Positions 6,166-21,542 of a DNA stretch of 64,000 bases are shown here, one piece after another. This DNA is from Candidatus Omnitrophota bacterium. Its GTDB lineage: Bacteria; Omnitrophota; Omnitrophia; Omnitrophales; Aquincolibacteriaceae. Every line of letters starts with the position of its first letter. The stretch's first letter is position 1. The notes beneath the pieces were generated by a model. That model made no database searches and was not told the origin of the DNA. It worked only from the letters and a program-made list of their open reading frames with translations. Where the stretch lies: the NCBI GenBank assembly GCA_022709525.1, contig JAKLIQ010000005.1:7626-71625 (forward strand), given 5' to 3'. The translations under genes and the position numbers were made by a program.

Positions 6166-6765
6166 TTATTCCTTTGAAAGAGCGATCTGATCAATATAAA
6201 CCGCACCAGATTTCGGATTTGAATTCTGGTCATCAAAAACAATTACGAATTCATTGAGTGAAGACCAATCCTGAATGTGGCGGAACTTATCAAACGGGAT
6301 AGTGACTTTCTGCCACTTGTCGGTGATATTTCCCACAATATAGGCTGAAGGTTTATTACCTTTATCTTTTAGTTCGATCTTCAATCGCTTCGTGAATCCA
6401 AGCTTTGCATCCCCTTTAATGTAAAACGTCAGGGAATTATAAGGGCTCGCATCCACCCCATTCAATTTCATCCAAAAACCGTTGTACGCAGGATTGGGTG
6501 AATCCACATCATAGTCCAAGCGAATCGAATAGCCGGCCCTATCACCCAAAGCATCATCCGACTCAAATTTCATCTCAGCCTTTTGAGTACTGTCATCCGG
6601 ATCCTTGTTCCATACGCCGAAATCGCCCCCGATATTATTTGGTTTGTCACCAGCATTGAAATCAGCAATGATCAATTCTTCCGCTGCGGCCATCACTTGC
6701 GATTGAAACGCAAAGGCCGCAACCATCATGCCCGTCAAAATGCCAATCATGAATTTCTGTCTCAT
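6166..6765 (-). CDS. Secreted carbohydrate-binding-module-like protein (CIA30/CBM11-like fold)
   Basis: Signal peptide (MRQKFMIGILTGMMVAAFAFQSQVMAAAEE). Single beta-sandwich-like domain with a CBM-like aromatic pattern. Assignment by resemblance only. Confidence 0.4.
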   Translation of the reverse strand: MRQKFMIGILTGMMVAAFAFQSQVMAAAEELIIADFNAGDKPNNIGGDFGVWNKDPDDSTQKAEMKFESDDALGDRAGYSIRLDYDVDSPNPAYNGFWMKLNGVDASPYNSLTFYIKGDAKLGFTKRLKIELKDKGNKPSAYIVGNITDKWQKVTIPFDKFRHIQDWSSLNEFVIVFDDQNSNPKSGAVYIDQIALSKE

Positions 6766-6835
6766 TTTACTTACTCCTTTCTTTGAATTGCCTTTCCCAT
6801 GCTTTGAATTCGAAAAAGGCCTTGCGTTTGTTTTC

Positions 6836-7477
6836 CTAAAAAATACTGGTAATTACCCCGCCAATTGCTCCATATTTGAATTTGGCAATTATTTTTTTCA
6901 AATCCGAATCTTCGCTGTATTGCCTCAGCGCCGTCTTAGTAACCGATTCAACAATAACTTTCGTTGTTTCTTCGGTTATGGGAGTTATCGCCTGCTGTTT
7001 ATGTTGACCGCTTGCAGTTCTTTGATAAATTTTTTGCCCGACTTCATCCAAAACGGTCAACTCAAGGATCATTTCCGCTTCAATGAGATGCGCCAGAGCA
7101 TCTGCCGCGAATATTCTGAGAGATTTGATTTTTAAGATGATGACGCCCTTCATCTTTTTCTTAGTCGTGATCAATTTTATGGAATCGGTTTCATTGAGTT
7201 GGACACGCACCACATCGAGTCCGACCTTTTCATTAATGTAGCGAATCAAACGATCCCCTACTAAATCAGTAAGATCGCTTTTCTTAACAATGATCGCGGC
7301 CGAGTCAATCACTCCTATCTTTTCACTAGCCCTTTCATCTATGGTATTCACCACCCCAACCGATAGCTTTTGATTCGGAGGCAACGAAATATCGGCATCT
7401 GATTTTTTTGAGAGCTTAGTCGCCGCACATCCGGAAAACGCTATAAAGCATAAAATTAAAAAAATCATTTTCCTCAT
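6836..7477 (-). CDS. Hypothetical lipoprotein
   Basis: Lipobox (LCFIAFSGCAAT). No recognised domain. Confidence 0.45.
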   Translation of the reverse strand: MRKMIFLILCFIAFSGCAATKLSKKSDADISLPPNQKLSVGVVNTIDERASEKIGVIDSAAIIVKKSDLTDLVGDRLIRYINEKVGLDVVRVQLNETDSIKLITTKKKMKGVIILKIKSLRIFAADALAHLIEAEMILELTVLDEVGQKIYQRTASGQHKQQAITPITEETTKVIVESVTKTALRQYSEDSDLKKIIAKFKYGAIGGVITSIF

Positions 7478-8658
7478 CGCTCTTTCTCCTGCTTCTCTTG
7501 AGCTTGATGACCAAGACCGGCCTCACGGTTAACGTGATTTTGCAAGAATAGCTGCTTCCCGCGTTCGATCTCTCTCTCGAGCTCTTCCGGTTTAGGTAAT
7601 TGAAGCTGGTATTTGGAGACGAAGATTTTGTTATTGAGGCCGCCAGTCGCGTATCTGACGGTTGTATTGTTCTTGTCGGAACAGAGAATGATGCCTATCG
7701 GGTCATTTTCCGCTTTCGGCAGAACATTCTCTTTTACCCAATTGACATAAAAGTTGGTTTGACCGGCATGAGAATGCGTGAACTTGGTAAGTTTCAGCTC
7801 AAGAACTATATAGGCCTTCAACAGAATGTTGTAGAGCAACAAATCGATTCGGTATTCATCGCCATCCACAGCAAATCTTTTTTGACGAGCCATAAATGCA
7901 AATCCCCGGCCAAGTTCCAGGAGGAAATTCTCAAGATGGCGAATCAGCGCATCTTCAAGATCTGATTCTGCGTAATCTTTTTTTAGCCCGAGAAAATCTA
8001 AAACATAGGAGTCTTTTACCTCATCTTCAGGTTTTGCAACGATTGGATTCTCGTTAGCTCTGGCAAGCACGAGATCTTTACGCTTCGATAATGCTGTTCT
8101 TTCATAAAGCAGCGCATTGATTTCCCGGTCAAGCTGCCGAACCGACCAGTGATTCTGAACAGAAAGAGCGTTATAGAAGGCCCTTTTTTCGGGTTCTTCG
8201 ATTCGTATGAGAAGCCGGTAATGAGACCATGAGAGAGTAAAGTAGGCATTGATCTCTCGAAGGAGATACGGGAATTGGCCACACAGTGTGTGGCCTTTTT
8301 GGAGCGCCATCTGGATGGAAGGCTTAAACCCATCTTGGCGATAGGTGAGATAAAATTGCCGTACCGTTTTAAGCTGCGTGAAACCGAACCCATTACCATA
8401 TCTTTTCGTAAGTTCTTGGGCGAGATTCTGTAAGATCTCTTCCCCGTAAGCGGCCCTTTCCTTGCCTCCCTGCTCAAATTCAACGATTCTCATCCCGATC
8501 ATCCAATAAGTTGCGATCAGCGTCGTATTGATTTGTCGAACCGCGGCCTTTCTTCCTTCTTCAATCAGTGCCGAAATGCTAGCGAAAAGCTCTTGGTACT
8601 CTGCGGGCCGCTTCGTTAACTCCTTTCCTTTTTTTATAAGGACATTTTTTTCATGCAT
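7474..8658 (-). CDS. DUF1016/YhcG-family PDDEXK nuclease-like protein
   Basis: YhcG-like N-terminal helical region (IATYWMIGMRIVEFEQ...) and C-terminal PD-(D/E)xK-like core (DLLLYNILLKAYIVLELK). Start chosen at MHEKN, position 8658. The track ORF extends to 8763. Confidence 0.65.
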   Translation of the reverse strand: MHEKNVLIKKGKELTKRPAEYQELFASISALIEEGRKAAVRQINTTLIATYWMIGMRIVEFEQGGKERAAYGEEILQNLAQELTKRYGNGFGFTQLKTVRQFYLTYRQDGFKPSIQMALQKGHTLCGQFPYLLREINAYFTLSWSHYRLLIRIEEPEKRAFYNALSVQNHWSVRQLDREINALLYERTALSKRKDLVLARANENPIVAKPEDEVKDSYVLDFLGLKKDYAESDLEDALIRHLENFLLELGRGFAFMARQKRFAVDGDEYRIDLLLYNILLKAYIVLELKLTKFTHSHAGQTNFYVNWVKENVLPKAENDPIGIILCSDKNNTTVRYATGGLNNKIFVSKYQLQLPKPEELEREIERGKQLFLQNHVNREAGLGHQAQEKQEKER

Positions 8659-9445
8659 TTTTGCGATCCTCTCTTGAGATGCATTCGGGAGCCCGCTTAT
8701 CGAAATGTCTTCTTGCTCCTTCATAGGACTCGATCGAACCGATATCAAACCATGCCCCGTCAAAATCCACGCCGTGAAGAGTTTCTTTCGTATTGAGCCA
8801 TGCGAAGAAGTCTCCGATCTTGTCCGGATTCAAGTTCTCGATCTCGAGATATTCCAGAACTCGCAGCTGGAATTTATTTGGGATGTAATAAACACCGATA
8901 CTTACCCGGGTCGATTTTGGATTTTCAGGTTTTTCCTGAAAGTCCGTGATCCGCGAGGCGTGATCGACTTCTACGACGCCGTATTGCGACGCGATGGATT
9001 TGTCTTTGACGTCATAGAGTCCCACAAAAGCGTGGTCCTTATGTCCAACGCAGTAAAGATCGATAAAATGCGTAAGCGGGTAATCGAAGTAATTGTCTCC
9101 ACACAAAACAACATATCCATCTGGATAGTCCTGCCCGGCTTGAATGCCGAGCCGAAGATCCTGGACTGCCCCCAATCTTTTCTCAGGCTCGTACACGTCA
9201 TTTTCTATGATCTGAAGCGGCTTTCGCGCGCAAGAAACTCTTTTCTTTGCCCACTCCATAAAATCAAGAGCAAAACGGCTATTAGTCACTAAAACGATCT
9301 TTTTAATGACTGGCGAGGCCTCCAATTTTTCGATCAAATGATCGAGAAGAGTTTTATCTCCGATTTCAAGAAGCGCCTTCGGCTTGAATTTGGTCAACGG
9401 GTAAAGACGGGTCCCGAAACCGGCCGCCAGAATAATTGCGTTCAT
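8651..9445 (-). CDS. Sugar-phosphate nucleotidyltransferase (NTP_transferase family)
   Basis: N-terminal MNAIILAAGFGTRLYPLT(K) nucleotidyltransferase G-rich loop. Start at ATG 9443-9445. Confidence 0.75.
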   Translation of the reverse strand: MNAIILAAGFGTRLYPLTKFKPKALLEIGDKTLLDHLIEKLEASPVIKKIVLVTNSRFALDFMEWAKKRVSCARKPLQIIENDVYEPEKRLGAVQDLRLGIQAGQDYPDGYVVLCGDNYFDYPLTHFIDLYCVGHKDHAFVGLYDVKDKSIASQYGVVEVDHASRITDFQEKPENPKSTRVSIGVYYIPNKFQLRVLEYLEIENLNPDKIGDFFAWLNTKETLHGVDFDGAWFDIGSIESYEGARRHFDKRAPECISREDRKNA

Positions 9446-9500
9446 TTGAAATGAATTCTCCTTTGAAAATTGAGTTCTTGAATTTGATAACACGATCTTT

Positions 9501-10568
9501 TTATTTGCCCGGTTGGTCATTGGCTTTCTCCTTGTTTTGGCTTTTTGGATCGAGAGCCTTCGGATTGATGAATCTTGCGAGTTCTTCCCGTGAAGGCTTT
9601 TGGATTGCCGGGAGCTTAGGCTGTATCACCCTACGTTTTCCGCTGATCCTTATCCATGCGCGCATCCCGTACTTCACATTGGAAGGAAACTCATCAAGCT
9701 TGATTTCGCAAGGAATGACGTGCTTTACATTGAAAACTTTTTCCACCTCTTCAGTGGTCCGGGGACCAACACTCGTCACTTCTCCGGAATAGGTCTTCCA
9801 GGGGAACGCCCGAAATCGCGCTTTCACCGCGTTTCCCTGCGCGACTTTTTCCACTTCCTTTTCAGAGATCAGGATTTCAAGGAAAAAGCTCCGCGGGTCC
9901 GCGAATTCCAGAACAAAATCACCTTCCTTTAATAGATTTCCGATCGTAATCCCGGGATCGGTAAGCAGCATCCCATCGAAAGGCGCTCTCAGCTCAAGCG
10001 ATTCCACTCTCTCCTTCAAAAACTTCACTTCTCCTTCAACCGATTCGATCTCTTTCTGACGCATGGCAAGCTCTTCTGCGGCCTGCGTATAATCCAGCTC
10101 GGCCTTATCCGACTGAAGACGGCCGATAACGCCGTTCTCGAACAGAATATTCTTCCGGTCTTTGTCCTTTGCCAGGAACTCAACCTGCTTTTCGAGGCGT
10201 GTTTTATCGTGATTCAGGATTTCGAGGTTTAGTTTTCGTTCCTCGAACTTCCTTGAAAGTTCGGGGTTCTCAAAACGCACGAGCAACTCCCCTTTTTTTA
10301 CTATGTCTCCTTTTTTATGAAGAAGTTCTTTCAGGATCCCGGAACTCGTAAGTCCGATCCGAGCGAACCGATCCGCCTGAACAATGCCTTCCCCCTTGAT
10401 GTATCCCTTAGGCCAAAAAAGGAAAGCTATGCCTAAGACGAGAACGATCAGAAAAAGTCTCGTCTTCCATTTACTCGTCCCTTCCGTTTTCTCTTCAAAA
10501 AGGGCCGGCTCCTGCGTGTTTTGATTCTGTTCTTTCTCCGTTTTCTTGTTTGTCTCGTTGTCGCTCAT
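9501..10568 (-). CDS. HlyD-family membrane fusion protein (periplasmic adaptor)
   Basis: N-terminal TM helix, biotinyl/lipoyl-like hairpin (GEGIVQADRFARIGLTSSGILKELLHKKGDIVKKGELLVRFEN), long coiled coil, then a beta-barrel region. Confidence 0.8.
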   Translation of the reverse strand: MSDNETNKKTEKEQNQNTQEPALFEEKTEGTSKWKTRLFLIVLVLGIAFLFWPKGYIKGEGIVQADRFARIGLTSSGILKELLHKKGDIVKKGELLVRFENPELSRKFEERKLNLEILNHDKTRLEKQVEFLAKDKDRKNILFENGVIGRLQSDKAELDYTQAAEELAMRQKEIESVEGEVKFLKERVESLELRAPFDGMLLTDPGITIGNLLKEGDFVLEFADPRSFFLEILISEKEVEKVAQGNAVKARFRAFPWKTYSGEVTSVGPRTTEEVEKVFNVKHVIPCEIKLDEFPSNVKYGMRAWIRISGKRRVIQPKLPAIQKPSREELARFINPKALDPKSQNKEKANDQPGK

Positions 10569-10586
10569 TTCTTTTAGTTCCTCCTC

Positions 10587-12173
10587 TTAGATCCAGCTTC
10601 TTAATTTCGCGGGAATCGATTTAGCTGTGAAATAGACTGTTGGTATCGAAAAAATCAGACTGATGAGAATGGGCGTTGTCTGCCAGACGAAGTACGGCGT
10701 GAGTTTCGTGCAAAAATAAAGGCCAAGGAACCCGAATGCCGTCCCGATCCAAAGCGATCGCGTCGCGGTTGGGAAATCCACTGTGGCAAACGGGTTTTTC
10801 GCCATGGGCCGCCAATGAAGCTTCTTCAAAGGAATGCTGAGGATCGCAAGCGGGCTATAAATGAAGTTATTGAGTGTCACTAGCGTGGAAATAAGAAGTT
10901 CATAAAGGTAATGCCGGACGTCCTCCCAAGTCTTCAAAATGACGGCCTTATGCAGAAAAACAACCGCGAGACTGAAAAGCAGGATCCATTTCAGGATCTG
11001 GTTCGAGAAAAGATTCATCCAGATCGAATCGATCCGGAAATAGATAAGTTCTCCGGTCATAAGGGAATGCGACAAAAGACCAAGCAGCACCCAGAAAAAG
11101 AACACGATGTCCGCCAGATAAAGATAAATGCCGTACCCGGCGAGAAACTTGGAGGCAAGCGTCACATTGGATTCGAAAAGAAGAGGCACACCCTGAAGCG
11201 TTCCTTGCGCCCAGCGGCTCGCTCTTGCTTTGGCCTCGAGATAATTCGAAGGCGCTTCGTCATACGCTTCAACATCCGGACAAAATGCGACACGGTATCC
11301 CATCTGATCAAGCCGGACGGTGTCCCAGTTATCGTGCGAGAGCAGGCCCTTCGGAAGCCGAATCTTGGAGATCGCTTTCGTTCTGGCAAGATGATGATGC
11401 CCGAATGAGATGGTTCGTCCAAAAATCGCTTGAACCGCCACGAAATTCAGGCGCTGCGCAAACCGGGTTCCGATCCTCTCGAAACGCGAGTACCAGGTCG
11501 TCGCATGCGCGATCCTCACAAATGCCTGAAAGATCGCGATATCTTGGTTTTCGGGATGTTCCGCTTTTCTGAGCAGTTTAAGGAGCGTCCCTTTCGGAAC
11601 CATCCCGTCCGCGTCACATATATATAGGTAGTCGTATTCCGGATGGGAGTGCAAAAACTCCGCGATATTCCCCTGTTTTCTTTCAACGGGGTGCGGTCTT
11701 CTCCGGTAAAACACCCGGCCGGGATGCAGCGATTCGAGTTTCGCGACAAGGTTCGCCTCATAAGGAGCGTACTCTTCCGCGGAATCCGAAAGGATCCATA
11801 AATCCACGTTGTGGAATTTATTCCCGGAAAAGGAATAATTCATCCGCTGCGACATTCCGTAGGATTCGTTGCGGATCGGGTAAACGAGCGCCACTTTCGG
11901 GAACCGTTTTACGTAGTCTTCCTTCAAGATCGGAGTTTTGAGGAAGGGATGGACCGCGCTTGTCAAAAAAAGATACGCGACATTAAAGAACAGGAACCCG
12001 AACCCAAAGATCCACGCCAAGCTCAAAAGAACCGTATCCTCCGTCATGACAATCGCGGATGACACAAGCCAAACAGCGATAAGTGTTAACACAACCACGG
12101 TTCCGAGAAAAAGCACCGTTCTTTTCTCCGGGTCCTTCAACCATCCGTGGAAATGAGATCTGTCCGGTATCAT
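10587..12173 (-). CDS. Integral-membrane processive family-2 glycosyltransferase (cellulose-synthase/OpgH-like polysaccharide synthase)
   Basis: GT2 fold with D,D,D and a Q(R)xRW-type motif (RASRWAQGTLQG). Flanked by N- and C-terminal multi-TM regions. Confidence 0.7.
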   Translation of the reverse strand: MIPDRSHFHGWLKDPEKRTVLFLGTVVVLTLIAVWLVSSAIVMTEDTVLLSLAWIFGFGFLFFNVAYLFLTSAVHPFLKTPILKEDYVKRFPKVALVYPIRNESYGMSQRMNYSFSGNKFHNVDLWILSDSAEEYAPYEANLVAKLESLHPGRVFYRRRPHPVERKQGNIAEFLHSHPEYDYLYICDADGMVPKGTLLKLLRKAEHPENQDIAIFQAFVRIAHATTWYSRFERIGTRFAQRLNFVAVQAIFGRTISFGHHHLARTKAISKIRLPKGLLSHDNWDTVRLDQMGYRVAFCPDVEAYDEAPSNYLEAKARASRWAQGTLQGVPLLFESNVTLASKFLAGYGIYLYLADIVFFFWVLLGLLSHSLMTGELIYFRIDSIWMNLFSNQILKWILLFSLAVVFLHKAVILKTWEDVRHYLYELLISTLVTLNNFIYSPLAILSIPLKKLHWRPMAKNPFATVDFPTATRSLWIGTAFGFLGLYFCTKLTPYFVWQTTPILISLIFSIPTVYFTAKSIPAKLRSWI

Positions 12174-13519
12174 TCCTCCACCCCCTCGGAATCGGAAGGT
12201 GGAACCAGAGCTTCGCTTTCGGAGCTTTGCGGAGTTGTTTCAAAATCCGCTTTCTTTTCGAGTTTGACGAGAAGAACCCGGTATTCGGTCACCGATTGAA
12301 CGTTTTTTATCTTCGCTTCTTCAAGCGCGATAAAAGAATCGATCAATTCCCCAGTTCCTTTTTCGCCGGCGATGAGTCTTGTCTTTTCATTCTTATAGAT
12401 CTCCTCGCGTTCGCGGATAAGCGCTTCCGTCAGCCGGATCTTTTCCCGGACTGCCCGGGCCTCGTGGAACGCTTCCCGGATCCCTTGCTCGTGTTTTTTC
12501 ACCTGAAGCTCGCCTTCCCATTTCATCTCCTCAATCTCGTGGGATTTCGCCTTGATCTTTGAGCCGAGCCGTCCGAAATCCCAAATGTTCCATTTTCCGA
12601 CAAGGCCGACCATGACTCGGTTTGTATCCACGAAAACATCGCTCGCCTCGTTCCATTTCGCGGAAAGACTCAGGTGCGGGTAGCGGTCGGCAACGAGTTC
12701 TTTTTTCTCAAATTGTTTTTCGCGGATCTTGAGATCCTTGAGTTTGTAGACCGGATCGTGCTCGCGGGCTGTTGTAAGGTATGTATTTGCGCCATCACTA
12801 AGCTCAGAAAAATCCCCGAGCGGTTCAAGGTCCAGAGATTCCCCCTCCCCGATCCCGATGGTTTCTTTAAGGACACTAAGCAGGTAATCGCAAGTCTCCT
12901 TGTGCTTAACGAGCGCCTGTTTTGCTCCCTGAAAGAGCGTTTCGATCCTGAAAAACTCATAGCGCGGCAGAATCTCCCGATCAACGAGTTTCTTGATCCG
13001 CTCGTACTCGACGGTGAGTTCTTTGACCTCACCCTGAGCGATCCGGGTAAGTTCCTTTTCCGCGAGCACTTCGGCGTAAAGCACCCGAACACTGGCTTCG
13101 ACGGCAACCTTGGCCTGCTCCAGTCGCAACTCTTCGCTTTCAACGATTGCTTTCTGTTTTTGCTTCTGAGCAACCGCTTTCCCGCCCTGGAAGATCGGCT
13201 GCTCGATCCCCGTGTCCACGTAATTCACGAAACTCTTTCCTCCCGTCGCGAAAGCGGACGTGATTTCGCCGGATAGTTTGGGGAAAAACTCCGCGAGGGC
13301 CCCCTTATAAAGGGACTCCTCTTTATGGAGCCGGGCAAAAGCGCGTTTTACTTCCGCGTGGTTCTTTAGCGCCCTTGCCACGGCTTCATCGAGAGTTAAA
13401 AGGGACCCAAACTGCTCCGGCGAAAGGGCATCCGGCACCGCGGCTTTTAGGGAATGCGCGGAAAACACGGCGACAGCAAAAAACGTTACGACGATGCCCC
13501 AGAACTTACTCGTTTTCAT
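12170..13519 (-). CDS. TolC-family outer membrane factor
   Basis: Signal peptide (MKTSKFWGIVVTFFAVAVFSAHS). Two-repeat OEP architecture with long coiled coils. Stop overlaps the GT2 start. Confidence 0.8.
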   Translation of the reverse strand: MKTSKFWGIVVTFFAVAVFSAHSLKAAVPDALSPEQFGSLLTLDEAVARALKNHAEVKRAFARLHKEESLYKGALAEFFPKLSGEITSAFATGGKSFVNYVDTGIEQPIFQGGKAVAQKQKQKAIVESEELRLEQAKVAVEASVRVLYAEVLAEKELTRIAQGEVKELTVEYERIKKLVDREILPRYEFFRIETLFQGAKQALVKHKETCDYLLSVLKETIGIGEGESLDLEPLGDFSELSDGANTYLTTAREHDPVYKLKDLKIREKQFEKKELVADRYPHLSLSAKWNEASDVFVDTNRVMVGLVGKWNIWDFGRLGSKIKAKSHEIEEMKWEGELQVKKHEQGIREAFHEARAVREKIRLTEALIREREEIYKNEKTRLIAGEKGTGELIDSFIALEEAKIKNVQSVTEYRVLLVKLEKKADFETTPQSSESEALVPPSDSEGVEE

Positions 13520-13572
13520 CACTCGAAATACCTCCCTTTTAGATCTGAACATGATCTTTCACCGGTCCTTGT

Positions 13573-13821
13573 CTACTTTTCCGAAAGACTTTTGATCAGT
13601 TTTTCCACGTTCTCCTGAAACGTCTTTGGATTTTCAGGGATCAGGATCCCGCGTCTTCCCGGCATCATCTGTGCCCCTTCCCGCGCCGTGAAATACCGGA
13701 TATCGCCCCGGATCTTTCCGTCCACTTCCACCTTGGTGAAATGCAGTTCTTCACCGTCCCGTGTCTCGACCACCGCCACTTTCTTCACTTCTTTGAATCC
13801 GCCTTCGTATCTTTTCTTCAT
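13573..13821 (-). CDS. Hypothetical small protein
   Basis: 82-aa ORF between trbI-like and tolC-like genes. No motif recognised. Confidence 0.3.
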   Translation of the reverse strand: MKKRYEGGFKEVKKVAVVETRDGEELHFTKVEVDGKIRGDIRYFTAREGAQMMPGRRGILIPENPKTFQENVEKLIKSLSEK

Positions 13822-13846: not shown

Positions 13847-14821
13847 TTAAATTGCTTCAAGCAGCATTACTTCAATATTGATCCCGGACTCGACCGTAAT
13901 GCTCTTGTCCACTTTGACGCTTCTTAAGTCCTGCGACGCCTGGTTCGTAAGATTGTCCGCGAGATTGACACGCATCTGGTCTTCAAGGCTGTAAGCATCC
14001 TGACTTCTTCCGCCGACAAAAAGAGACGCTCCGGCAAGCAGCGTTTCCCCGATCGCTTTGAGAACCTTCGTGTCCGTGTGTTTGTCCACTTTCCCTTTAA
14101 TCCCGCCCGAACCATCCTCGGAAAGGGCGATCGCCCGGATGCGAAGCTCGCGTCCATCCGGAAAGATCAAAAGATCAAACCGCACATTCACCCGGTCCAC
14201 CGATTTCACGACGTTCACTTCCCCAAGAAACCGGGAGCCCTGGGGAATGACGACCTGATTTTTGACGCTGAAATCTTTTGAGACCAGCGCCGTGACCGGG
14301 GCCGCGACGTTAAACGAGAATATTCGCTCATTTAAAAGCGCCGGGATCTTGGTCCCTGAAGGAATCCCGAGTTTCGCATCCTCGGAACGGACTTTAGAAG
14401 ATGTTTGCGGTTTTGGATTCTCGGGTTTGTCGATGAAGACCGCGATTTCGCTCGTGTATTTTCGTTTCCCAGAAAGGTTTTGCCGGGTTTCGCTTTGTTT
14501 CGCGCGGAAAGTCTTCCCTTTCGCGGAAGAATCAATCGCGCGCTCCATGGATTGAGTCGTAATCATGATCCGGTTCTCCTCAGGACGAGGCATGGGATTC
14601 TGGGCGCGTTTATGAGCTGGTTTAGAGAAAAGAAGGATTGAAAGCATGAAAACTCCGGCGATCACAAGCGCGATTCGGAGCGACTTTTTCTCAAGCAGGT
14701 TCTGAACAAAACCCGCCGCTTTATTCGCGCGTTTCGGCTCATCGAAAAACTCGGGTTCCGGTGGAGTTGGTAATTCGCTTGTTTTCTTTTCCGGCTTTTT
14801 CTTGAATATTTCTGGTTTCAT
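13847..14821 (-). CDS. trbI: T4SS TrbI/VirB10-like protein
   Basis: N-terminal TM, Pro-rich region. C-terminal block (VIPQGSRFLGEV...VRFDLLIFPDGRELRIRAIALSEDGSGGIKGKVDKH...LLAGASLFVGG) matches the VirB10/TrbI C-terminal domain pattern. Confidence 0.7.
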   Translation of the reverse strand: MKPEIFKKKPEKKTSELPTPPEPEFFDEPKRANKAAGFVQNLLEKKSLRIALVIAGVFMLSILLFSKPAHKRAQNPMPRPEENRIMITTQSMERAIDSSAKGKTFRAKQSETRQNLSGKRKYTSEIAVFIDKPENPKPQTSSKVRSEDAKLGIPSGTKIPALLNERIFSFNVAAPVTALVSKDFSVKNQVVIPQGSRFLGEVNVVKSVDRVNVRFDLLIFPDGRELRIRAIALSEDGSGGIKGKVDKHTDTKVLKAIGETLLAGASLFVGGRSQDAYSLEDQMRVNLADNLTNQASQDLRSVKVDKSITVESGINIEVMLLEAI

Positions 14822-15843
14822 TTGAACCACTCGAATCCTTTGATTTCGAAGTTCCGGGGTTTTGAACTCGCGCTCGCGGGCGTATCTTCCAGGAGCCGAA
14901 GCACGGGTTTGTCGTCTTTTCCCATCGCGCGATAATCAAACACAAGAACCCCGTATTCATAACTGTCGGGGTTAATGACCCCGGCGAGCTTGAGTTCCGA
15001 GGGGATCTCGATAACACCGGATTCTTTCTTGCCGAGGAACCGTTTCTCGTAGGTCTGGATCCCCACAAAGGCTTTAAGGACCCGGTAAGGAATCTTTGAA
15101 TAATTGAGGACCGAGAATCGGAGATAAAGTTTGTTTCCGACCTGAGCGAGGAAAAGCAGATTAAGCTGCACCTCGGAATCCGCTTTCGACTTCTTGAGAT
15201 CGAGCGTACGAATGCCGGTTGTGACTTTCTCTTTGATTTTTTCTTCGGAAATTTCCTGGGCTTTTTGGTCGAGTTTCTCTTCCTTTTTCTGATACTGTGC
15301 TTTAAGCTCCTCGACTTTCTTTTCTACTTTTTCCTCGAACGCGTTATGAACGAGCGTTTCGTCGTCTTGCGGGAGCCGGAAATCGAGTACGAAATCGGCG
15401 GTGTCAGGAGCCCCGACCGAAACATCGAACGCAAGCCGCGAGGAAGCGGTCATGATCACGAGATTCGTTTTCGCGTCCGGTTCGTCCGTAATGGGTTTTA
15501 TAAGGACCTGTTTCTCGTAAACCTCGACTTTGTAAAGTTCCTGGTCCCCCACGAACACCTTGAGCGCTTTTTCGGGAAGATCGATCGTGGAGACATAACC
15601 GAGCGCGGTTTGGAGTTTAAAGGTCACCGTAGAACGCATGGTAACCTTGTAGATATTTTGCGTGCTGCGCTTGAGTTTGTTGAAATGCTGGCGATCCTTG
15701 AGCGGATCCGGTTTCTCGTCCTGAACCGCGGACTCATCGTTTGACTGGGAGCTTTTGCTTTCCGCGGCGGGAAGAGAAGAAGCATGAACAAGGACGAATA
15801 CGGCAAGCGCCGCGACACTAAAGATTTGATTTGGTTTTCTCAT
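14818..15843 (-). CDS. trbG: T4SS TrbG/VirB9-like secreted protein
   Basis: Signal peptide, N-terminal beta domain (TVTFKLQTALGYVSTIDLPE), central coiled-coil/Lys-Glu linker, C-terminal beta-sandwich. Position between VirB8-like and VirB10-like genes matches trb order. Confidence 0.5.
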   Translation of the reverse strand: MRKPNQIFSVAALAVFVLVHASSLPAAESKSSQSNDESAVQDEKPDPLKDRQHFNKLKRSTQNIYKVTMRSTVTFKLQTALGYVSTIDLPEKALKVFVGDQELYKVEVYEKQVLIKPITDEPDAKTNLVIMTASSRLAFDVSVGAPDTADFVLDFRLPQDDETLVHNAFEEKVEKKVEELKAQYQKKEEKLDQKAQEISEEKIKEKVTTGIRTLDLKKSKADSEVQLNLLFLAQVGNKLYLRFSVLNYSKIPYRVLKAFVGIQTYEKRFLGKKESGVIEIPSELKLAGVINPDSYEYGVLVFDYRAMGKDDKPVLRLLEDTPASASSKPRNFEIKGFEWFK

Positions 15844-15934
15844 TGATTCCCAGCTCCTTATTTAAAATGGAGGGGATGAGAAACCAGCTGCTCAGAAGGG
15901 CCCGAATGGCCCCGGGAGACCGGTAACATCTCCC

Positions 15935-15987
15935 CTCAAAGTATTGGGCCAAAACGGGGTGTTTTGGAATAGGTTCCCACAGGTTTT
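15935..15987 (-). promoter_or_regulatory. Conserved island promoter-like element, copy A (ECF-type GGAAC-N16-CGTT on gene strand)
   Basis: One of three ~53-bp near-identical copies. Lies about 92 bp upstream of the trbG-like ATG. Confidence 0.5.
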
Positions 15988-16008
15988 GAGAAAAAAAGTG
16001 GAAGATTT

Positions 16009-16656
16009 CTAGAGTTTATTGAGGAGAATTTCGCGGTAGTCTTCGACAAGGACGCCCCAGGGGATGTCCTTGCTTCTTGGAACCTTCTTTAAGAGCAGCT
16101 CGGCTTTAAAGAGGCTTGATTCCTTATAATCCCGATCGTTGTAATTGAGGATGGTCCGCACCCCGATCAGCGCGATTTTCACGTATTCCGGGGTATTCCG
16201 GTCGATCGATTCTTCTTTGAACTCGATATGCGTGTAAAGACCGGTATCGTGGAATTTCGCGAAGAACCCGGAGTCCACAAGGTCCCGCTCCGCGATTTTC
16301 TGATACCGAGCCGTCATTCGGTTCCACGCCTCAGCCGTATCGCTTGAAAGCGTGTAGGAATTCAATTCCCTAAAACGTTTCGTGAAAGTTTTCGCGAAAT
16401 CAAAAACCTCGAAATCGGTCGGGGCGTTATTAAGCTCAAGATCATGGATCGCTTCCGCTTTTCCCACCTCATTTACCCGGATCACGACCGGCGGCCGCTT
16501 GGCGAGCATGAACGCGCCAAAGATCGTGAAGAAAAGAAGCGCGAGCAAAAAAAGACTGATGAGTTTCAGGAACTCGACCTGCGCTTCCAGGTCTCCGAAC
16601 ACCTCGTAATACCGGCGTTTCATGTTCTCGAGTTTGATATGAAAACGGGTTTTCAT
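16009..16656 (-). CDS. trbF: T4SS TrbF/VirB8-like protein
   Basis: Short cytoplasmic N-terminus, one TM (LISLFLLALLFFTIFGAFML), then a ~150-aa NTF2-like periplasmic domain. Sits between trbL-like and trbG-like genes. Confidence 0.5.
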   Translation of the reverse strand: MKTRFHIKLENMKRRYYEVFGDLEAQVEFLKLISLFLLALLFFTIFGAFMLAKRPPVVIRVNEVGKAEAIHDLELNNAPTDFEVFDFAKTFTKRFRELNSYTLSSDTAEAWNRMTARYQKIAERDLVDSGFFAKFHDTGLYTHIEFKEESIDRNTPEYVKIALIGVRTILNYNDRDYKESSLFKAELLLKKVPRSKDIPWGVLVEDYREILLNKL

Positions 16657-17513
16657 TTGTAACCGGCTCCTCCTCCGGCTGGAGTTTGGGGTTTTGAAGA
16701 TGAAGGGGTTTTAGGAATAATGTAACGGGTCGCCACAGCTGTAAACGCGCCAAGCGCGATCGAACCAAGACCGCTTAAGTTGCCGCCCGAAACGAACTGG
16801 TTTGAAAGAAGAGGGACAAGCACAAAGAGCACGATAAAAAGGACGTTCGCGGCGAGGATCATCATGAAATTGGTTTCTTCCGTGAGATAAATCGCAGTCA
16901 GGTTCATAACGGAAACGACTTTCATGAGAATCGAAAGAATAATGTTCCACGCCGAAATGGAAACAAGACTCTTGAGCCATGTGTTAAGGCCCTGAGCGGT
17001 CCCTTTATAGATCCCGACTGAGATCACGATCGGACCGATCACGTACAAAAACGACAGAAGCAGGAACCGAAGCATCATGATCGCGCCAAGAAGCGCTCCG
17101 GCGACGGCGTAAGTGACGTAGTTCAAGACCGTGGCCGTGAGTCTCAGATCGAATTTCCAGGCGGTCTTCCAGGAGAGCGGCTGCTTCAGGAACGCTTTTA
17201 TGACTTCCTGGAATTCCTCGTGCGGCATGATGGCGTTTGATACGAGGTCCGCGCCGTAAACGATCCACGTGAAGAACCGCTCGTAGAGAATGAGAAGACC
17301 AACGACGAGGATTACCCTGATGAAAAGACCGGTATAATCGGACTGGTTCTTAAGCGCCTGAAAGTTTTCGTGAAGAATCGCGACAATGAAAAGGATCGAA
17401 AGCAGAATAAACCCGATCCTCGACATCGTCTGATACGGCTGAGCGAAGAGGTCCGGGATCTGAAGAACGTTAGTAAAAAGAAACCCTTCGTTTGCGTTAA
17501 AAAGACCGGCCAT
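16653..17513 (-). CDS. trbL: T4SS TrbL/VirB6-like polytopic membrane protein
   Basis: At least 5 TM helices, C-terminal Gly/Pro-rich tail. Position after the trbJ-like gene. Confidence 0.6.
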   Translation of the reverse strand: MAGLFNANEGFLFTNVLQIPDLFAQPYQTMSRIGFILLSILFIVAILHENFQALKNQSDYTGLFIRVILVVGLLILYERFFTWIVYGADLVSNAIMPHEEFQEVIKAFLKQPLSWKTAWKFDLRLTATVLNYVTYAVAGALLGAIMMLRFLLLSFLYVIGPIVISVGIYKGTAQGLNTWLKSLVSISAWNIILSILMKVVSVMNLTAIYLTEETNFMMILAANVLFIVLFVLVPLLSNQFVSGGNLSGLGSIALGAFTAVATRYIIPKTPSSSKPQTPAGGGAGYK

Positions 17514-17515
17514 AG

Positions 17516-18283
17516 TTACGCTCCTGTAAATGCCCGACTGATGTTCTCCGCGTAATCACCGGCATCCTCCATGAATTTGAGGCGTTCGGTTTCGACGCGT
17601 TTTTCTTCGCGCGAGACCTGCGCGATTTTCGTGGCTTCTAGCTCCAACAGTTTCGCCATCGCTTCCTGGTTCTGCTGATCCAGGACCATGAGCTGGGACA
17701 TCGCCTGCGCCTGAAGACGAACCGCTCCTTTCGGGCTTGCGGTCGCGGCCTGATCCGCGATCTCGGTCGCGGCGGTGCGCGTCGCGCTTCCGGCTTCCCG
17801 GATCTGCCGGGCGAGATCGAAGGCGTCCACCACCTGCATCTCGTCAAAGGCGAGGTAGGGTTTTGCGTCCGTCTCCGGGATTTTTCCGGTAAGATCCTCC
17901 AACGCGGAACGAATGTCTTCCGGGCCGTTTGCCCCTTGAACCATTTGGATCTGCGGGGAAGTGAATCCGATATCCCTGAAAGCGTTTTGTAAGCTTGTGG
18001 TCCCCTGCCCGAGAAGGTTCCGTATGGGATCACCGATGATGGAACGCAGGATCTCATCCAGCCCCGAATGAAACCGGAATAGCTCCACAGTCTGATTCGT
18101 AAGCTGGTTGAGATGCTCGATCGCGAGCGCGATCTGCTGCCCCCATTCCGTCTGAAGGATCGAGTTTTGAAGTTGGTTCACCGCCGTATTGATCGGGTCG
18201 TTTACGATGAGCGCGTACGATCTCGGGATCGCGACGCTGATTAAAAATACCGCTAAGAACAGAATCTTAGATGATTTTTTCAT
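17516..18283 (-). CDS. trbJ: T4SS TrbJ/VirB5-like protein
   Basis: Signal peptide from MKKSSKILFLAVFLISVAIPRSYA. Largely alpha-helical, coiled-coil rich, ~255 aa. ATG at 18281-18283. Confidence 0.55.
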   Translation of the reverse strand: MKKSSKILFLAVFLISVAIPRSYALIVNDPINTAVNQLQNSILQTEWGQQIALAIEHLNQLTNQTVELFRFHSGLDEILRSIIGDPIRNLLGQGTTSLQNAFRDIGFTSPQIQMVQGANGPEDIRSALEDLTGKIPETDAKPYLAFDEMQVVDAFDLARQIREAGSATRTAATEIADQAATASPKGAVRLQAQAMSQLMVLDQQNQEAMAKLLELEATKIAQVSREEKRVETERLKFMEDAGDYAENISRAFTGA

Positions 18284-18406
18284 AAATGCCTCCCGTGAAA
18301 TAAAAGTAAAAACCCGAGTCCGAGAATCAGGGTCCCGATAAGCAACCGGAGAATCTGCCGCCGGCATATCCTTCTTATCCATCTTGTTTTTCGCTCCTCC
18401 GCCGTG

Positions 18407-20920: not shown

Positions 20921-21195
20921 TTGGGAAGCTCCTCTTTTCGTTCCCGTCTCGAGAAATATTTCCGGGGACGGAGTAGGAACCGCATCACCGATCCCGCCCA
21001 ATGCGGAGCCTTCCCCTTTTTATAGAACCGCAACACCAGATACGCGCCGGACACGAGCGCGAGATTAAGGAGCAGGTTCGTGGAAAAGACGAACACCACG
21101 AGATAAATCACGAGCAGGATCAAAAGATCCAGGAACTCGAGCCCGAAAATCTTGTTTTTGCTCTGGATCTTCGTGAAACCTTTCAGTGTTTTCAT
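20917..21195 (-). CDS. trbD: T4SS TrbD/VirB3-like small membrane protein
   Basis: 92 aa with one or two TM helices. Immediately upstream of and overlapping the VirB4 start. Confidence 0.55.
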   Translation of the reverse strand: MKTLKGFTKIQSKNKIFGLEFLDLLILLVIYLVVFVFSTNLLLNLALVSGAYLVLRFYKKGKAPHWAGSVMRFLLRPRKYFSRRERKEELPK

Positions 21196-21206
21196 TTACA
21201 GCCTCC

Positions 21207-21542
21207 TTAAAAATGCGCGATGTGCGTGATGAAATCGAGGATCGCGCGGGAAAGTAAAATGAGCGCTCCGCCGCCTGCGGCAAGCGCGCCGCGCTGCATA
21301 GCCCGCTCATCGCCAAGCGCCATCCCGACCCCAGCCACGCCGACCCCGATCACAAGCACCGCCGGTCCGACCGTCCGGATCAGGAAATCGCCGACACCCT
21401 CGAGAAACGCTCCTAAATCCGATTCCGAGGTCGCTTCGGCGTACGCGACCTGAGCTTGAATCAGCAGGAACAATCCGAACAGGGCCAGCTTTTGAATTTT
21501 TGGACCAATACTTTTTCCATTCACGTTCTTTACCCTCCTCAT
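21207..21542 (-). CDS. trbC: T4SS pilin TrbC/VirB2-like
   Basis: About 110 aa from MRRVKN. Signal/leader, then two hydrophobic helices (GVGVAGVGMALG...AAGGGALILL) typical of VirB2 pilins. Start coordinate approximate, within a few nt. Confidence 0.55.
   Translation of the reverse strand: MRRVKNVNGKSIGPKIQKLALFGLFLLIQAQVAYAEATSESDLGAFLEGVGDFLIRTVGPAVLVIGVGVAGVGMALGDERAMQRGALAAGGGALILLSRAILDFITHIAHF

What the first reader, a model, noticed from the sequence alone, without database searches (positions are those of the whole stretch)
9501..13552. Tripartite TolC-like / processive GT2 synthase / HlyD-like module with no ABC transporter: candidate synthase-coupled exopolysaccharide export system as ICE cargo
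Three co-directional overlapping genes encode an OMF (TolC family), a membrane GT2 with a Q(R)xRW-type motif flanked by TM bundles, and an MFP. An NTP-transferase gene (NDP-sugar supply) follows. From established knowledge, synthase plus HlyD-like plus TolC tripartite systems have been described for cyanobacterial cellulose secretion. Here it rides on a conjugative element together with a secreted CBM-like protein and a glycoside-hydrolase-like protein (46433-48262). This suggests a transferable matrix or surface glycan.
Basis: partly seen in the sequence, partly recalled or inferred. Interest (0 to 1): 0.6.

Follow-up and report, generated by a model that had tools for sequence, protein, structure and literature searches.

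The report
Glucan synthase–export trio inside conjugation operon
A mobile element of an uncultured Omnitrophota bacterium carries, at the end of its DNA-transfer (type IV secretion) operon, three genes predicted to make a sugar polymer (probably a beta-1,2-glucan) and pipe it out through both membranes without any ATP-driven pump, and this trio has stayed with the transfer genes across a whole family of such elements.

Summary
On the minus strand lie a TolC-family outer-membrane factor (13552..12170), a 528-aa membrane GT2 (12173..10587), a HlyD-type adaptor (10568..9501) and a sugar-1-phosphate nucleotidyltransferase (9520..8651). No ABC, RND or MFS partner is in the window.

The GT2 has the fold and invariant motifs of processive synthases. 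It is not a cellulose synthase. [quoted passage not shown]

In other genomes, relatives of the trio are fused or operonic with beta-1,2-glucanase-clan enzymes. One such enzyme lies at 46433-48262. The product is therefore probably a beta-1,2-glucan.

"Cargo" needs refining. The trio follows VirB10 in 46 of 52 related type IV secretion operons, co-diverges with VirB4 (rho 0.82), was apparently captured once, and was lost in a few lineages.

The synthase–adaptor–TolC design is known from cyanobacterial cellulose and rhizobial mixed-linkage glucan. This is a new variant of it: an OpgH-like synthase, all genes in one operon, no PilZ domain, embedded in a conjugation operon. A role in mating is inferred, not shown.

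The parts
12170..13552 (-). TolC-family outer-membrane factor (OMF), 460 aa as listed; probable start at 13519 with a signal peptide
   Evidence: Pfam OEP E 1.1e-39 with two repeats; TIGR01844 TolC E 7e-21, below cutoff. RBS and start read. Same family as the OMF half of the L006 OMF::SGL fusion, E 1.5e-25.
10587..12173 (-). Membrane-embedded processive GT2 synthase, OpgH/Cgs-like, 528 aa. Two N-terminal TM helices, a cytosolic GT-A domain, and a C-terminal bundle of about 6 TM helices. No PilZ domain.
   Evidence: Pfam PF13632. NCBIfam best hits are 9 MdoH models, best E 2.6e-46 at 158 bits against a 419-bit cutoff. PDB profile hits only Cgs/NdvB. AF2 pLDDT 90.2. Foldseek: BcsA E 2e-18; Cgs has the highest TMq, 0.71-0.74. 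Invariant DxD, SHD and RxxRW motifs.
9501..10568 (-). HlyD-type membrane fusion protein / periplasmic adaptor, 355 aa. Cytoplasmic tail, one TM helix, lipoyl/barrel and coiled-coil hairpin regions.
   Evidence: Pfam HlyD_D23 5e-14, HlyD_3 4e-11. TIGR01730 2e-21 and TIGR01843 5e-18, both below cutoffs. Best PDB relatives are EmrA 4tko (E 4.5e-14) and MacA.
8651..9520 (-). Sugar-1-phosphate nucleotidyltransferase (NDP-glucose supply); probable true start about 9445
   Evidence: Pfam NTP_transferase 1.8e-38. Best PDB hit is UTP-glucose-1-P uridylyltransferase 8x7s, E 2.3e-16, followed by Man-1-P and Glc-1-P transferases. Detected after the MFP in most, not all, related loci.
13573..13821 (-). Conserved 82-aa protein between VirB10 and the OMF; function unknown
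   Evidence: Orthologs at the same position in most related loci. Only a weak PC4-like hit, in the L005 ortholog.
13847..21632 (-). T4SS genes immediately upstream in the same direction: VirB10/TrbI 14830..13847, VirB9/CagX 15843..14818, 215-aa 16656..16009, VirB6-like 17513..16653, 288-aa 18382..17516, VirB4 21001..18407, VirB3-like 21195..20917, VirB2/TrbC-like 21632..21207
   Evidence: Pfam TrbI 1.5e-18, CagX 6e-10, TrbL weak, TraG P-loop/TraC 6e-36. Small ORFs read; TrbC Pfam hit in orthologs. No convincing minus-strand terminator between 22332 and 8651; the only strong hairpin is at 22368-22335.
21679..22332 (-). Sigma-70 region-4-like regulator at the head of the T4SS-trio gene string
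   Evidence: Pfam Sigma70_r4 1.9e-15. Conserved at this position in related loci.
34749..37336 (-). Coupling protein (36560..34749) and Replic_Relax relaxase (37336..36572) of the same element
   Evidence: Pfam TrwB_AAD_bind / TraG-D_C / T4SS-DNA_transf, and Replic_Relax.
3800..5467 (-). Large serine recombinase at the element end, next to a truncated ComM-like gene (2806-3879, +)
   Evidence: Pfam Resolvase, Recombinase and Zn_ribbon_recom. The Mg_chelatase match stops at profile position 165 of 207.
46433..48262 (-). Beta-1,2-glucanase-clan (SGL clan, PF10091) enzyme with a C-terminal CBM-like domain, no signal peptide. Functionally linked family; location on the ICE is unproven.
   Evidence: Pfam Glycoamylase 1e-13. 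PDB: Cgs cyclase region E 6e-19, TiCGS-Tg GH189 8wy1 1.2e-18, EeSGL1 GH192 8xuj 1.3e-8. A 50%-identical homolog closes an OMF-GT2-MFP-SGL operon in L155.
6166..7477 (-). Secreted CBM11-like protein (6765..6166) and a lipoprotein (7477..6836) between the trio and the recombinase
   Evidence: Signal peptide and lipobox read from the translations. PF03425 CBM_11 is recorded on many homologs, with more than 1243 homolog clusters. Both are conserved in part of the related elements.

Best explanation
The three genes encode a tripartite, synthase-dependent polysaccharide secretion machine with no ATPase or proton-driven pump.

Proposed mechanism:
- The GT2 polymerises glucose from an NDP-glucose, which the co-encoded nucleotidyltransferase helps supply.
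- The GT2 threads the growing chain through its own transmembrane channel across the inner membrane.
- The HlyD-type adaptor, anchored by one N-terminal helix, forms the periplasmic duct.
- The TolC-like protein forms the outer-membrane exit.
- Polymerisation itself drives extrusion.

The polymer is most likely a beta-1,2-linked glucan.

The module existed as a chromosomal OMF-GT2-MFP(-glucanase) operon. It was captured once at the distal end of the T4SS operon of an Omnitrophota ICE family. It has since been inherited with the mating genes and is read through with them.

Its biological role is most plausibly a donor-made surface or extracellular glucan that promotes cell contact or aggregation during transfer, or otherwise conditions the envelope of cells carrying the element.

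Shown here: gene content, family and fold assignments, motif conservation, synteny and co-divergence. Inferred: complex formation, product identity, co-transcription and the link to mating.
For: Family and fold:
- OEP 1e-39, HlyD domains and GT2.
- GT2 AF2 model, pLDDT 90.2.
- Foldseek top hits are BcsA, Cgs, HAS and CesA.
- Invariant DxD, SHD, RxxRW and KxGN-type motifs.

The GT2 sits in the operon position of the inner-membrane transporter. It has a 4-nt ATGA overlap with the OMF gene; start-stop overlaps of 4 or 8 nt recur in diverged loci. No ABC, RND or MFS gene is in the window.

GT2-MFP adjacency also holds in the non-T4SS clade: L007, L044, L048, L049, L050, L051, L155.

Product:
- The only functional sequence relatives are MdoH/OpgH (E 2.6e-46) and Cgs.
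- SGL-clan enzymes, all of whose characterised members act on beta-1,2-glucan (PMC12102758), are linked to relatives of the trio. One closes the operon in L155. One is fused to the cognate OMF in L006. Others lie nearby in L048, L058 and L060.
- The nucleotidyltransferase's best solved relative is a UDP-glucose pyrophosphorylase.

T4SS link:
- 46 of 52 VirB10 loci carry the GT2 downstream.
- 44 of 56 GT2 loci have VirB10 upstream, and every exception has a GT2 of 40% identity or less.
- Spearman correlation of GT2 identity against VirB4 identity is 0.82.
- The VirB4 and GT2 trees are congruent, with a single T4SS-linked GT2 clade.
- No strong terminator lies inside the gene string.

Precedent for synthase-MFP-TolC secretion: BgsA-BgsB-TolC and the cyanobacterial cellulose system (PMC13438883).
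Against: - No experiment exists; the organisms are uncultured.
- Complex formation between a GT2 and an MFP has never been seen structurally and could not be modelled here.
- The GT2 scores far below every MdoH equivalog cutoff, and Cgs itself does not translocate its product, so both linkage type and translocation are inferred.
- The Rudaea relative sits among amino-sugar and radical-SAM genes, so family members may polymerise other sugars.
- The SGL-clan enzyme in this window is 33 kb away, lacks a signal peptide, and may not be on the element.
- Four to six related T4SS operons lack the trio and carry unrelated cargo in that slot, so the trio is dispensable for the T4SS. This fits 'long-lived cargo' as well as 'mating accessory'.
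- The trees are neighbour-joining without bootstrap support.
Confidence: 0.68

Rival explanations
1. The molecular machine is the same, but it is ordinary ICE cargo. It gives the host cell a matrix, capsule or protective glycan and plays no part in transfer. Its position after VirB10 is simply the element's cargo slot.
For: Sister elements carry unrelated genes in exactly this slot: MarR, an MGDG-synthase-like GT, a lipid phosphatase, an MFS-acyltransferase-ligase fusion, HipA and SRAP. The T4SS persists without the trio. Presence of the NTP-transferase varies.
Against: Cargo normally turns over fast; within this window, the restriction-modification island is missing from a 92%-identical relative. 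The trio, by contrast, is retained down to about 33-36% VirB4 identity and co-diverges with VirB4. It has no intergenic space for its own promoter.
Confidence: 0.3
2. The GT2 is an OpgH-type enzyme that makes periplasmic osmoregulated glucans. The MFP and OMF work with a transporter encoded elsewhere in the genome, forming a conventional efflux or type I system.
For: The best family hits are MdoH models. The MFP's closest solved relatives, EmrA and MacA, partner with MFS and ABC pumps. Only 64 kb of the genome was visible.
Against: The OMF-GT2-MFP order, with overlapping or tightly spaced genes, is conserved in more than 40 loci. It also holds in chromosomal relatives with no pump gene nearby. 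A mobile element could not rely on a host pump in every recipient. The GT2 misses all MdoH cutoffs and lacks the OpgH N-terminal domain.
Confidence: 0.08
3. The GT2 is a non-processive glycolipid synthase, and the MFP and OMF export a glycolipid, as DevBCA-HgdD does for heterocyst glycolipids. Alternatively, the trio secretes or glycosylates a protein such as the giant RHS-type proteins encoded next to distant relatives.
For: Weak Pfam hit to Glyco_transf_21, the ceramide glucosyltransferase family, at 5.8e-9. Distant relatives L006 and L007 have GT2-MFP followed by RHS/YD giants. Triad-less sister elements carry lipid-modifying genes in the slot.
Against: The full-length fold match is to channel-forming processive synthases, with TMq up to 0.74. 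The RxxRW and SHD motifs are invariant. Linkage with polysaccharide-specific glucanases recurs. There is no RHS gene in this window.
Confidence: 0.06

Closest known systems
BgsA-BgsB-TolC mixed-linkage beta-glucan system of Sinorhizobium meliloti (PMC13438883)
   Same: A membrane GT2 synthase, a HlyD-type MFP and a TolC-family channel, with no ABC/RND/MFS pump. Proposed to couple synthesis and export of a beta-glucan.
   Different: BgsA is cellulose/curdlan-synthase-like and is activated by c-di-GMP through a C-terminal domain, and its tolC is unlinked on the chromosome. Here the synthase is OpgH/Cgs-like with no c-di-GMP domain. All three genes plus an NDP-sugar enzyme are contiguous, and the module sits in a T4SS operon on an ICE.
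Cyanobacterial extracellular cellulose tripartite system (Thermosynechococcus cellulose synthase, HlyD-like protein and TolC; Maeda et al. 2018, as cited in PMC13438883)
   Same: Same three-part architecture, and the same proposed mechanism of synthase-driven extrusion through an MFP-TolC duct.
   Different: That system uses a cellulose synthase with PilZ/c-di-GMP control, dispersed genes and a beta-1,4 product. This comparison rests on the citing paper and on my own knowledge; the sequences were not compared here.
OpgH/MdoH, the osmoregulated periplasmic glucan glucosyltransferase
   Same: Closest sequence family: 9 NCBIfam MdoH models, best E 2.6e-46, aligned across GT and TM regions. Shares the DxD, SHD and RW-QG motifs. 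OpgH is a beta-1,2-glucan-forming, membrane-embedded GT2.
   Different: Scores are far below every equivalog cutoff (158 against 419 bits). The protein is 528 aa against about 600-850 aa and lacks the N-terminal extension. It is partnered with an MFP and OMF rather than OpgG, so its product is predicted to leave the cell instead of staying periplasmic.
[quoted passage not shown]
   Same: The only PDB relative found by sequence profile (8rf9/8rf0, E 2.6e-5) and the best structural match by TM-score. The clan of its GH189 cyclase domain is linked with this GT2 family. From established knowledge of Agrobacterium chvA/chvB, cyclic glucan is needed for attachment and T4SS-dependent host interaction.
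   Different: Cgs is a giant multidomain enzyme of about 2800 aa (GT84, GH189 and GH94 domains). It releases cyclic glucan in the cytoplasm for export by an ABC transporter. Here there is a stand-alone GT, no phosphorylase or cyclase domain in the operon, and no ABC exporter.
Classical synthase-dependent exopolysaccharide systems (Bcs, Pga, Alg, Pel)
   Same: A processive inner-membrane synthase is coupled to a dedicated outer-membrane exit. There is an associated glycoside hydrolase: the SGL-clan enzyme in ancestral versions of the operon plays the part of BcsZ, PgaB or AlgL.
   Different: The outer-membrane and periplasmic parts are TolC plus HlyD rather than a TPR-porin (BcsC, PgaA, AlgK/E). 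There is no c-di-GMP receptor.
Tripartite efflux pumps and type I secretion (MacAB-TolC, EmrAB-TolC, HlyBD-TolC)
   Same: The MFP and OMF components are homologous (EmrA, MacA, TolC families), and the operon logic is the same.
   Different: The energised inner-membrane transporter is replaced by a glycosyltransferase.

Membership tests
Tripartite synthase-MFP-OMF polysaccharide secretion (BgsAB-TolC / cyanobacterial cellulose type) | Inner-membrane processive GT2 with its own transmembrane channel | tested here: met
   AF2 pLDDT 90.2. Foldseek hits BcsA, Cgs, HAS and CesA, E down to 2e-18, TMq up to 0.74. Invariant DxD, SHD and RxxRW.
Tripartite synthase-MFP-OMF polysaccharide secretion (BgsAB-TolC / cyanobacterial cellulose type) | HlyD-family membrane fusion protein genetically coupled to the synthase | tested here: met
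   Pfam HlyD_D23 and HlyD_3. Encoded 18 nt downstream of the GT2. This adjacency is conserved in the T4SS-linked and non-T4SS clades.
Tripartite synthase-MFP-OMF polysaccharide secretion (BgsAB-TolC / cyanobacterial cellulose type) | TolC-family outer-membrane channel required for production | tested here: inconclusive
   The TolC-family protein is present and its gene overlaps the GT2 gene in a way consistent with translational coupling. The requirement for production can only be shown genetically.
Tripartite synthase-MFP-OMF polysaccharide secretion (BgsAB-TolC / cyanobacterial cellulose type) | No ABC/RND/MFS transporter acting as the inner-membrane partner | tested here: met
   None found in 64 kb, and none in the gene tables of related loci. 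The rest of the genome was not visible.
Tripartite synthase-MFP-OMF polysaccharide secretion (BgsAB-TolC / cyanobacterial cellulose type) | Physical complex and secreted polymer | not testable with these tools
   Needs expression, pull-down or cryo-EM, and glycan analysis.
OpgH/MdoH (NCBIfam PRK05454 equivalogs) | Score above the curated equivalog cutoff | tested here: not met
   Best 158.1 bits against a 419-bit cutoff. All 9 MdoH models score below cutoff. True MdoH proteins are only 23-29% identical.
OpgH/MdoH (NCBIfam PRK05454 equivalogs) | Long form (about 600-850 aa) with an N-terminal cytoplasmic extension and an OpgG partner | tested here: not met
   The protein is 528 aa and begins about 15 residues before TM1. 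No OpgG-like gene turned up in the Pfam scans of the window's large ORFs.
Bacterial cellulose synthase BcsA | C-terminal PilZ domain, BcsB partner, BcsA family-model match | tested here: not met
   No PilZ or BcsB in Pfam. No BcsA model among NCBIfam hits at E up to 0.01. Similarity to BcsA is at fold level only, 13-16% identity.
[quoted passage not shown] | Multidomain GT84 + GH189 cyclase + GH94 phosphorylase polypeptide | tested here: not met
   Only the GT/TM region aligns (query 267-513 to Cgs 715-964). The window protein has no further domains.
Integrative and conjugative element with a VirB-type T4SS | VirB4 ATPase, VirB2/3/6/9/10 homologs, coupling protein, relaxase, recombinase | tested here: met
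   Recombinases or integrases lie at the same end in relatives. No VirB11, VirB1 or VirB7 was recognised.
SGL clan of beta-1,2-glucan-active enzymes (GH144/162/189/192-194), for the 609-aa protein | Significant sequence match to characterised members | tested here: met
   Cgs cyclase region 6e-19, TiCGS-Tg 8wy1 1.2e-18, EeSGL1 8xuj 1.3e-8. PF10091 1e-13. The clan-defining catalytic residues named in PMC12102758 were not checked.

The most novel reading that the evidence does not exclude
The glucan-export trio is a working accessory of the conjugation machine itself. It would be a T4SS-coupled polysaccharide secretion module that builds a donor-specific beta-1,2-glucan coat or glue for mating-pair formation or stabilisation. 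In these possibly host-attached nanobacteria, the glucan might instead serve contact with a partner cell. That would make it the first polysaccharide secretion system to be an ancestral, co-evolving part of a T4SS operon, and the first case of beta-1,2-glucan extruded through a TolC duct.
Probability: 0.25. Interest if true: 0.8.

Novelty: new variant of a known kind. Interest (0 to 1): 0.6.

Why it matters
Pump-less synthase-adaptor-TolC secretion has only two genetically supported examples. In both, the genes are scattered and the synthase is cellulose-synthase-like. This family offers several things.

- **A compact portable operon.** All parts are in one 4-5 kb operon, including the NDP-sugar enzyme.
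- **A different synthase lineage.** It is OpgH/Cgs-like, which suggests the design arose or spread beyond cellulose-type enzymes.
- **A possible new export route for beta-1,2-glucan.** These polymers are known so far as periplasmic OPGs or as cyclic glucans exported by ABC transporters.
- **A natural experiment for asking what the glycan does.** There are more than 40 diverged copies tied to a T4SS, and a few lineages have lost it.
- **An unusual ICE backbone.** An envelope-glycan module that co-diverges with the mating genes is uncommon for ICEs. It may bear on how mobile elements spread in a phylum of very small, possibly host-dependent bacteria.
- **A practical test bed.** The operon is a ready construct for testing GT2-MFP docking and for producing beta-1,2-glucan.

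Tried and rejected
- **Single-sequence PDB searches.** The GT2 and the OMF found nothing. Only a family profile reached Cgs.
- **Element boundaries.** I looked for att-type direct repeats between the recombinase end and the rest of the window, and for the missing ComM C-terminus. Neither was found. The far boundary of the ICE is unknown, as is whether 44-64 kb belongs to it.
- **CBM-like protein p199 as a trio-specific partner.** Similar sequences lie beside distant GT2 genes. I rejected the idea because the family has more than 1243 clusters across Omnitrophota.
- **Giant ORF (48274-63939) as a surface adhesin.** Rejected: it is a midasin-like HEAT, 6xAAA and VWA protein.
- **The 609-aa glucanase-clan gene as ICE cargo.** Not supported and not excluded. 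In the 92%-identical relative it sits 3 kb from the relaxase. In another genome the LacI-GH pair is among housekeeping genes, about 19 kb beyond the recombinase-side end of the ICE.
- **Literature.** Searches for OpgH with HlyD, for Omnitrophota T4SS, and for glycan modules in conjugation operons found no prior description.
- **First Pfam call on the giant ORF.** It failed on reading frame and was repeated correctly.
- **Not attempted.** MFP or OMF structure prediction, and multimer modelling, which is not available here.

Full report
**1. What is in the sequence**

Four co-directional minus-strand genes occupy 13552..8651.

- **OMF (460 aa).** Pfam OEP, E 1.1e-39. A ribosome-binding site points to a start at 13519, which gives a typical signal peptide.
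- **GT2 (528 aa).** Pfam Glyco_trans_2_3.
- **HlyD-type adaptor (355 aa).** It has a cytoplasmic tail and one TM helix.
- **Sugar-1-phosphate nucleotidyltransferase (289 aa).** Pfam NTP_transferase, E 1.8e-38.

The OMF stop and GT2 start share ATGA. The GT2 and MFP genes are 18 nt apart, with a GAGGAGG between them. The listed 20-nt MFP/NTPase overlap probably disappears if the NTPase starts at its conserved MNAIILAAG motif.

No PilZ domain is present. No ABC, RND or MFS transporter was found among the ORFs of at least 150 aa. No ABC signature motif occurs in a real gene in any frame.

**2. The organism and the element**

The GT2 is identical to a protein from a Candidatus Omnitrophota MAG. 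About 105 clusters form a tight family of 510-550 aa proteins, at 31-100% identity, almost all from Omnitrophota. After that there is a gap to true MdoH proteins at E 1e-18.

The window holds a conjugative element.

- Directly upstream of the trio lie a conserved 82-aa gene, VirB10/TrbI, VirB9/CagX, a 215-aa gene, a VirB6-like gene, a 288-aa gene, VirB4, VirB3-like and VirB2/TrbC-like genes, and a sigma-70-region-4 regulator.
- Further along are a coupling protein and a Replic_Relax relaxase.
- At the other end, a large serine recombinase abuts a ComM-like gene that stops short of its C-terminal domain.
- The only strong terminator-like hairpin on the coding strand lies just upstream of the regulator (22368-22335). 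None lies between there and the end of the NTPase gene.

Read-through from the T4SS genes into the trio is therefore likely, but it is inferred.

**3. What kind of GT2**

- **Family models.** NCBIfam gives nine MdoH/OpgH models as the only meaningful hits. The best is E 2.6e-46 and covers residues 9-519, but all fall far below the equivalog cutoffs. No BcsA, PgaC or other synthase model appears among the hits.
[quoted passage not shown] The alignment runs from the SHD motif through the RW motif into the C-terminal TM region.
- **Model.** The AlphaFold model is confident (pLDDT 90.2, pTM 0.89). It shows two N-terminal TM helices, a GT-A domain and a C-terminal helical bundle.
- **Fold search.** Foldseek ranks E. 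coli and Rhodobacter BcsA, Cgs (highest TM-score, 0.71-0.74), hyaluronan synthases, plant CesA, chitin synthase and Fks1. All are processive, channel-forming synthases.
- **Motifs.** D187xD189, H280-D281 (the TED-equivalent position), R317, R320-W321 and K166 (in the RKQGN motif, whose G and N are conserved but not invariant) are invariant down to 31% identity.

**4. What polymer**

Both functional relatives of the GT2 make beta-1,2-glucan. Independent genomic context points the same way.

The 609-aa protein at 46433-48262 carries PF10091. It matches the Cgs cyclase region (6e-19), TiCGS-Tg (GH189, 1.2e-18) and EeSGL1 (GH192, 1.3e-8). According to PMC12102758, every characterised member of this 'SGL clan' acts on beta-1,2-glucan.

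Members of that clan are tied to this GT2 family in four ways.

- In L155, a chromosomal locus, the genes run OMF-GT2-MFP-SGL with a 4-nt overlap and then 25- and 21-nt gaps. The SGL there is 50% identical to the window protein and has an export signal.
- In L006, an OMF of the same family as the window OMF (E 1.5e-25) is fused to an SGL domain and lies divergently next to GT2-MFP.
- In L048, an SGL protein lies within a few kb of GT2-MFP and an OMF.
- In L058 and L060 (Rudaea), an SGL protein lies within a few kb of the GT2.

A periplasmic hydrolase is also a standard part of synthase-dependent systems (BcsZ, PgaB, AlgL; established knowledge).

The nucleotidyltransferase's best solved relative is a UDP-glucose pyrophosphorylase, though Man-1-P and dTDP-Glc enzymes score close behind.

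I rate beta-1,2-glucan at about 0.6-0.7. The Rudaea cluster, with kinase/isomerase, radical-SAM and aminotransferase genes, warns that some family members may use modified sugars.

**5. Cargo or backbone?**

Synteny was measured from both directions.

- **Anchored on the GT2** (74 genome loci; table). Of 56 non-redundant loci with at least 3.5 kb upstream, 44 have VirB10 just upstream. All 12 exceptions have GT2s at 40% identity or less.
- **Anchored on VirB10** (70 metagenome loci). Of 52 loci with at least 3.5 kb downstream, 46 have the GT2 within 6 kb.

The order VirB4 ... VirB9-VirB10-(82 aa)-OMF-GT2-MFP holds even where VirB4 is only 33-36% identical (L043, L053, L062, L136). GT2 identity tracks VirB4 identity (Spearman 0.82, n=37) and VirB9 identity (0.77, n=52).

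In a VirB4 neighbour-joining tree, four of the triad-less operons (L135, L141, L140, L143) nest among triad-bearing ones, and a deeper branch (L053) has the trio. L140 and L130 keep a lone HlyD-like gene right after VirB10. This suggests loss rather than primary absence.

In a GT2 tree rooted on MdoH, the T4SS-linked GT2s included form one clade (L053 was not in this tree). That clade is nested in a grade of chromosomal GT2s, several of which have an adjacent MFP. This suggests a single capture of a pre-existing module.

Against a strict 'backbone' reading, the triad-less elements carry unrelated cargo in the same slot. That cargo is often envelope-lipid related. The T4SS clearly survives without the trio.

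My reading is that the trio is an ancestral, strongly retained accessory module at the distal end of the T4SS operon. It is neither free-floating cargo nor an essential T4SS part.

**6. Mechanism**

Homology and fold support the following, but no step has been demonstrated.

- An NDP-glucose is supplied by the co-encoded nucleotidyltransferase.
- The GT2 polymerises it processively and translocates the chain across the inner membrane.
- A HlyD-type adaptor related to EmrA and MacA forms the periplasmic duct.
- A TolC-type channel forms the exit.
- Chain elongation is the only driving force, as proposed for BgsA-BgsB-TolC and the cyanobacterial cellulose system (PMC13438883).

The link to mating (adhesion, aggregation or envelope conditioning of donors) rests only on operon position and co-inheritance. 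I give it about 0.25-0.3. Another 0.3 goes to 'host-benefit glycan with no role in transfer'.

**7. Comparison with known systems and novelty**

The architecture belongs to the synthase-MFP-TolC class. It fails membership tests for OpgH (cutoffs, length, partner), BcsA (PilZ, BcsB), Cgs (multidomain architecture) and type I secretion (no ABC transporter).

New here are the following.

- An OpgH/Cgs-lineage synthase in this role.
- A complete single-operon form with an NDP-sugar enzyme and, ancestrally, an SGL-clan hydrolase.
- A predicted extracellular route for beta-1,2-glucan.
- Long-term residence in a conjugative T4SS operon across an Omnitrophota ICE family.

I found no prior description.

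Verdict: a real feature, a new variant of a known kind, interest 0.6.

**8. Limits**

- All evidence is computational.
- The trees are neighbour-joining without support values.
- Redundancy filtering of loci was approximate.
- MAG binning may mix strains.
- The far boundary of the ICE was not found.
- It remains open whether the glucanase-clan gene at 46433-48262 travels with the element.

Noticed in passing
window 2806-5467: A ComM-like Mg-chelatase ORF (2806-3879, +) ends at profile position 165 of 207 and lacks its C-terminal domain. It converges on the 3' end of a large serine recombinase gene (5467..3800). This looks like ICE insertion into comM, a known island hotspot. No att repeat and no comM remainder was found in the window.
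   Followed up: partly
window 39385-43460: A low-GC (about 0.41) island encodes a Z1-domain protein, an NgoFVII-like restriction endonuclease and a Dcm methylase. It is absent from the 92%-identical relative L153, where LacI, two small genes and the relaxase are contiguous. This looks like recently acquired defence cargo.
   Followed up: partly
window 48274-63939: A giant ORF of more than 5221 aa, possibly running off the window, has many HEAT repeats, six AAA_5 modules with midasin-type lids, and a VWA domain. It is a midasin-like cytoplasmic ATPase rather than a surface protein. A homolog of more than 5005 aa sits in the same position in L153.
   Followed up: partly
window 46433-48262; L155 10001-11914: The window's SGL-clan enzyme has no signal peptide and starts 12 nt after the giant ORF's stop. 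Its 50%-identical homolog in L155 has an N-terminal export signal and closes an OMF-GT2-MFP-SGL operon. It is unclear whether the window copy is cytoplasmic or has been re-purposed.
   Followed up: partly
window 6166-6765: A secreted 199-aa CBM11-like protein belongs to a family with more than 1243 homolog clusters; the 120 best listed are about 62-86% identical and the named ones are Omnitrophota. This is an unusually abundant and well-conserved small secreted protein family. Its C-terminal fold resembles the C-terminus of the 609-aa SGL-clan protein (tblastn E 8e-6).
   Followed up: partly
L006 11659-19603; L007 3864-13862: In distant, non-T4SS relatives, the GT2-MFP pair is followed directly by giant RHS/YD-repeat toxin genes of 2022 aa and more than 2987 aa. 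In L006 a BamD/YfiO-like TPR protein lies between them. A possible link between this glycan system and giant toxin display or secretion is unexplained.
   Followed up: no
L058 9120-19251 (Rudaea sp. 3F27F6): A cultured gammaproteobacterium has a GT2 of this family in a cluster with an NTP-transferase, a GHMP-kinase/SIS fusion, a radical SAM/SPASM enzyme, a DegT aminotransferase, a methyltransferase and a strong PF10091 protein (E 9e-73). This could be a modified-sugar polymer. It is a possible experimentally tractable relative.
   Followed up: partly
window 13573-13821: An 82-aa protein is conserved between VirB10 and the OMF in most related elements. The only hint to function is a weak PC4-like (ssDNA-binding) hit in one ortholog. 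A second PC4-like protein lies at 34038-34553.
   Followed up: no
L014/L018/L022; L021/L026/L029/L036: Single MAGs hold 2-4 diverged copies (62-69% GT2 identity to the window) of the T4SS-plus-trio element on separate contigs. Either several related ICEs sit in one genome or the bins mix strains.
   Followed up: no
L140 10913-15571; L143 10784-14834: Sister ICEs that lack the trio carry envelope-lipid genes in the same slot after VirB10. L140 has a lone HlyD-like protein, MarR, an MGDG-synthase-like GT and a lipin-like phosphatase. L143 has MarR and an MFS-acyltransferase-AMP-ligase fusion (Aas/LplT-like).
   Followed up: partly
window 26468-29071: A MoxR-type AAA ATPase (28022-29071) and a DUF2201 metallopeptidase/VWA-like protein (26468-27688) form a pair inside the element. 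A RadC/JAB protein lies at 33128-33811. Their roles in the ICE are unknown.
   Followed up: no
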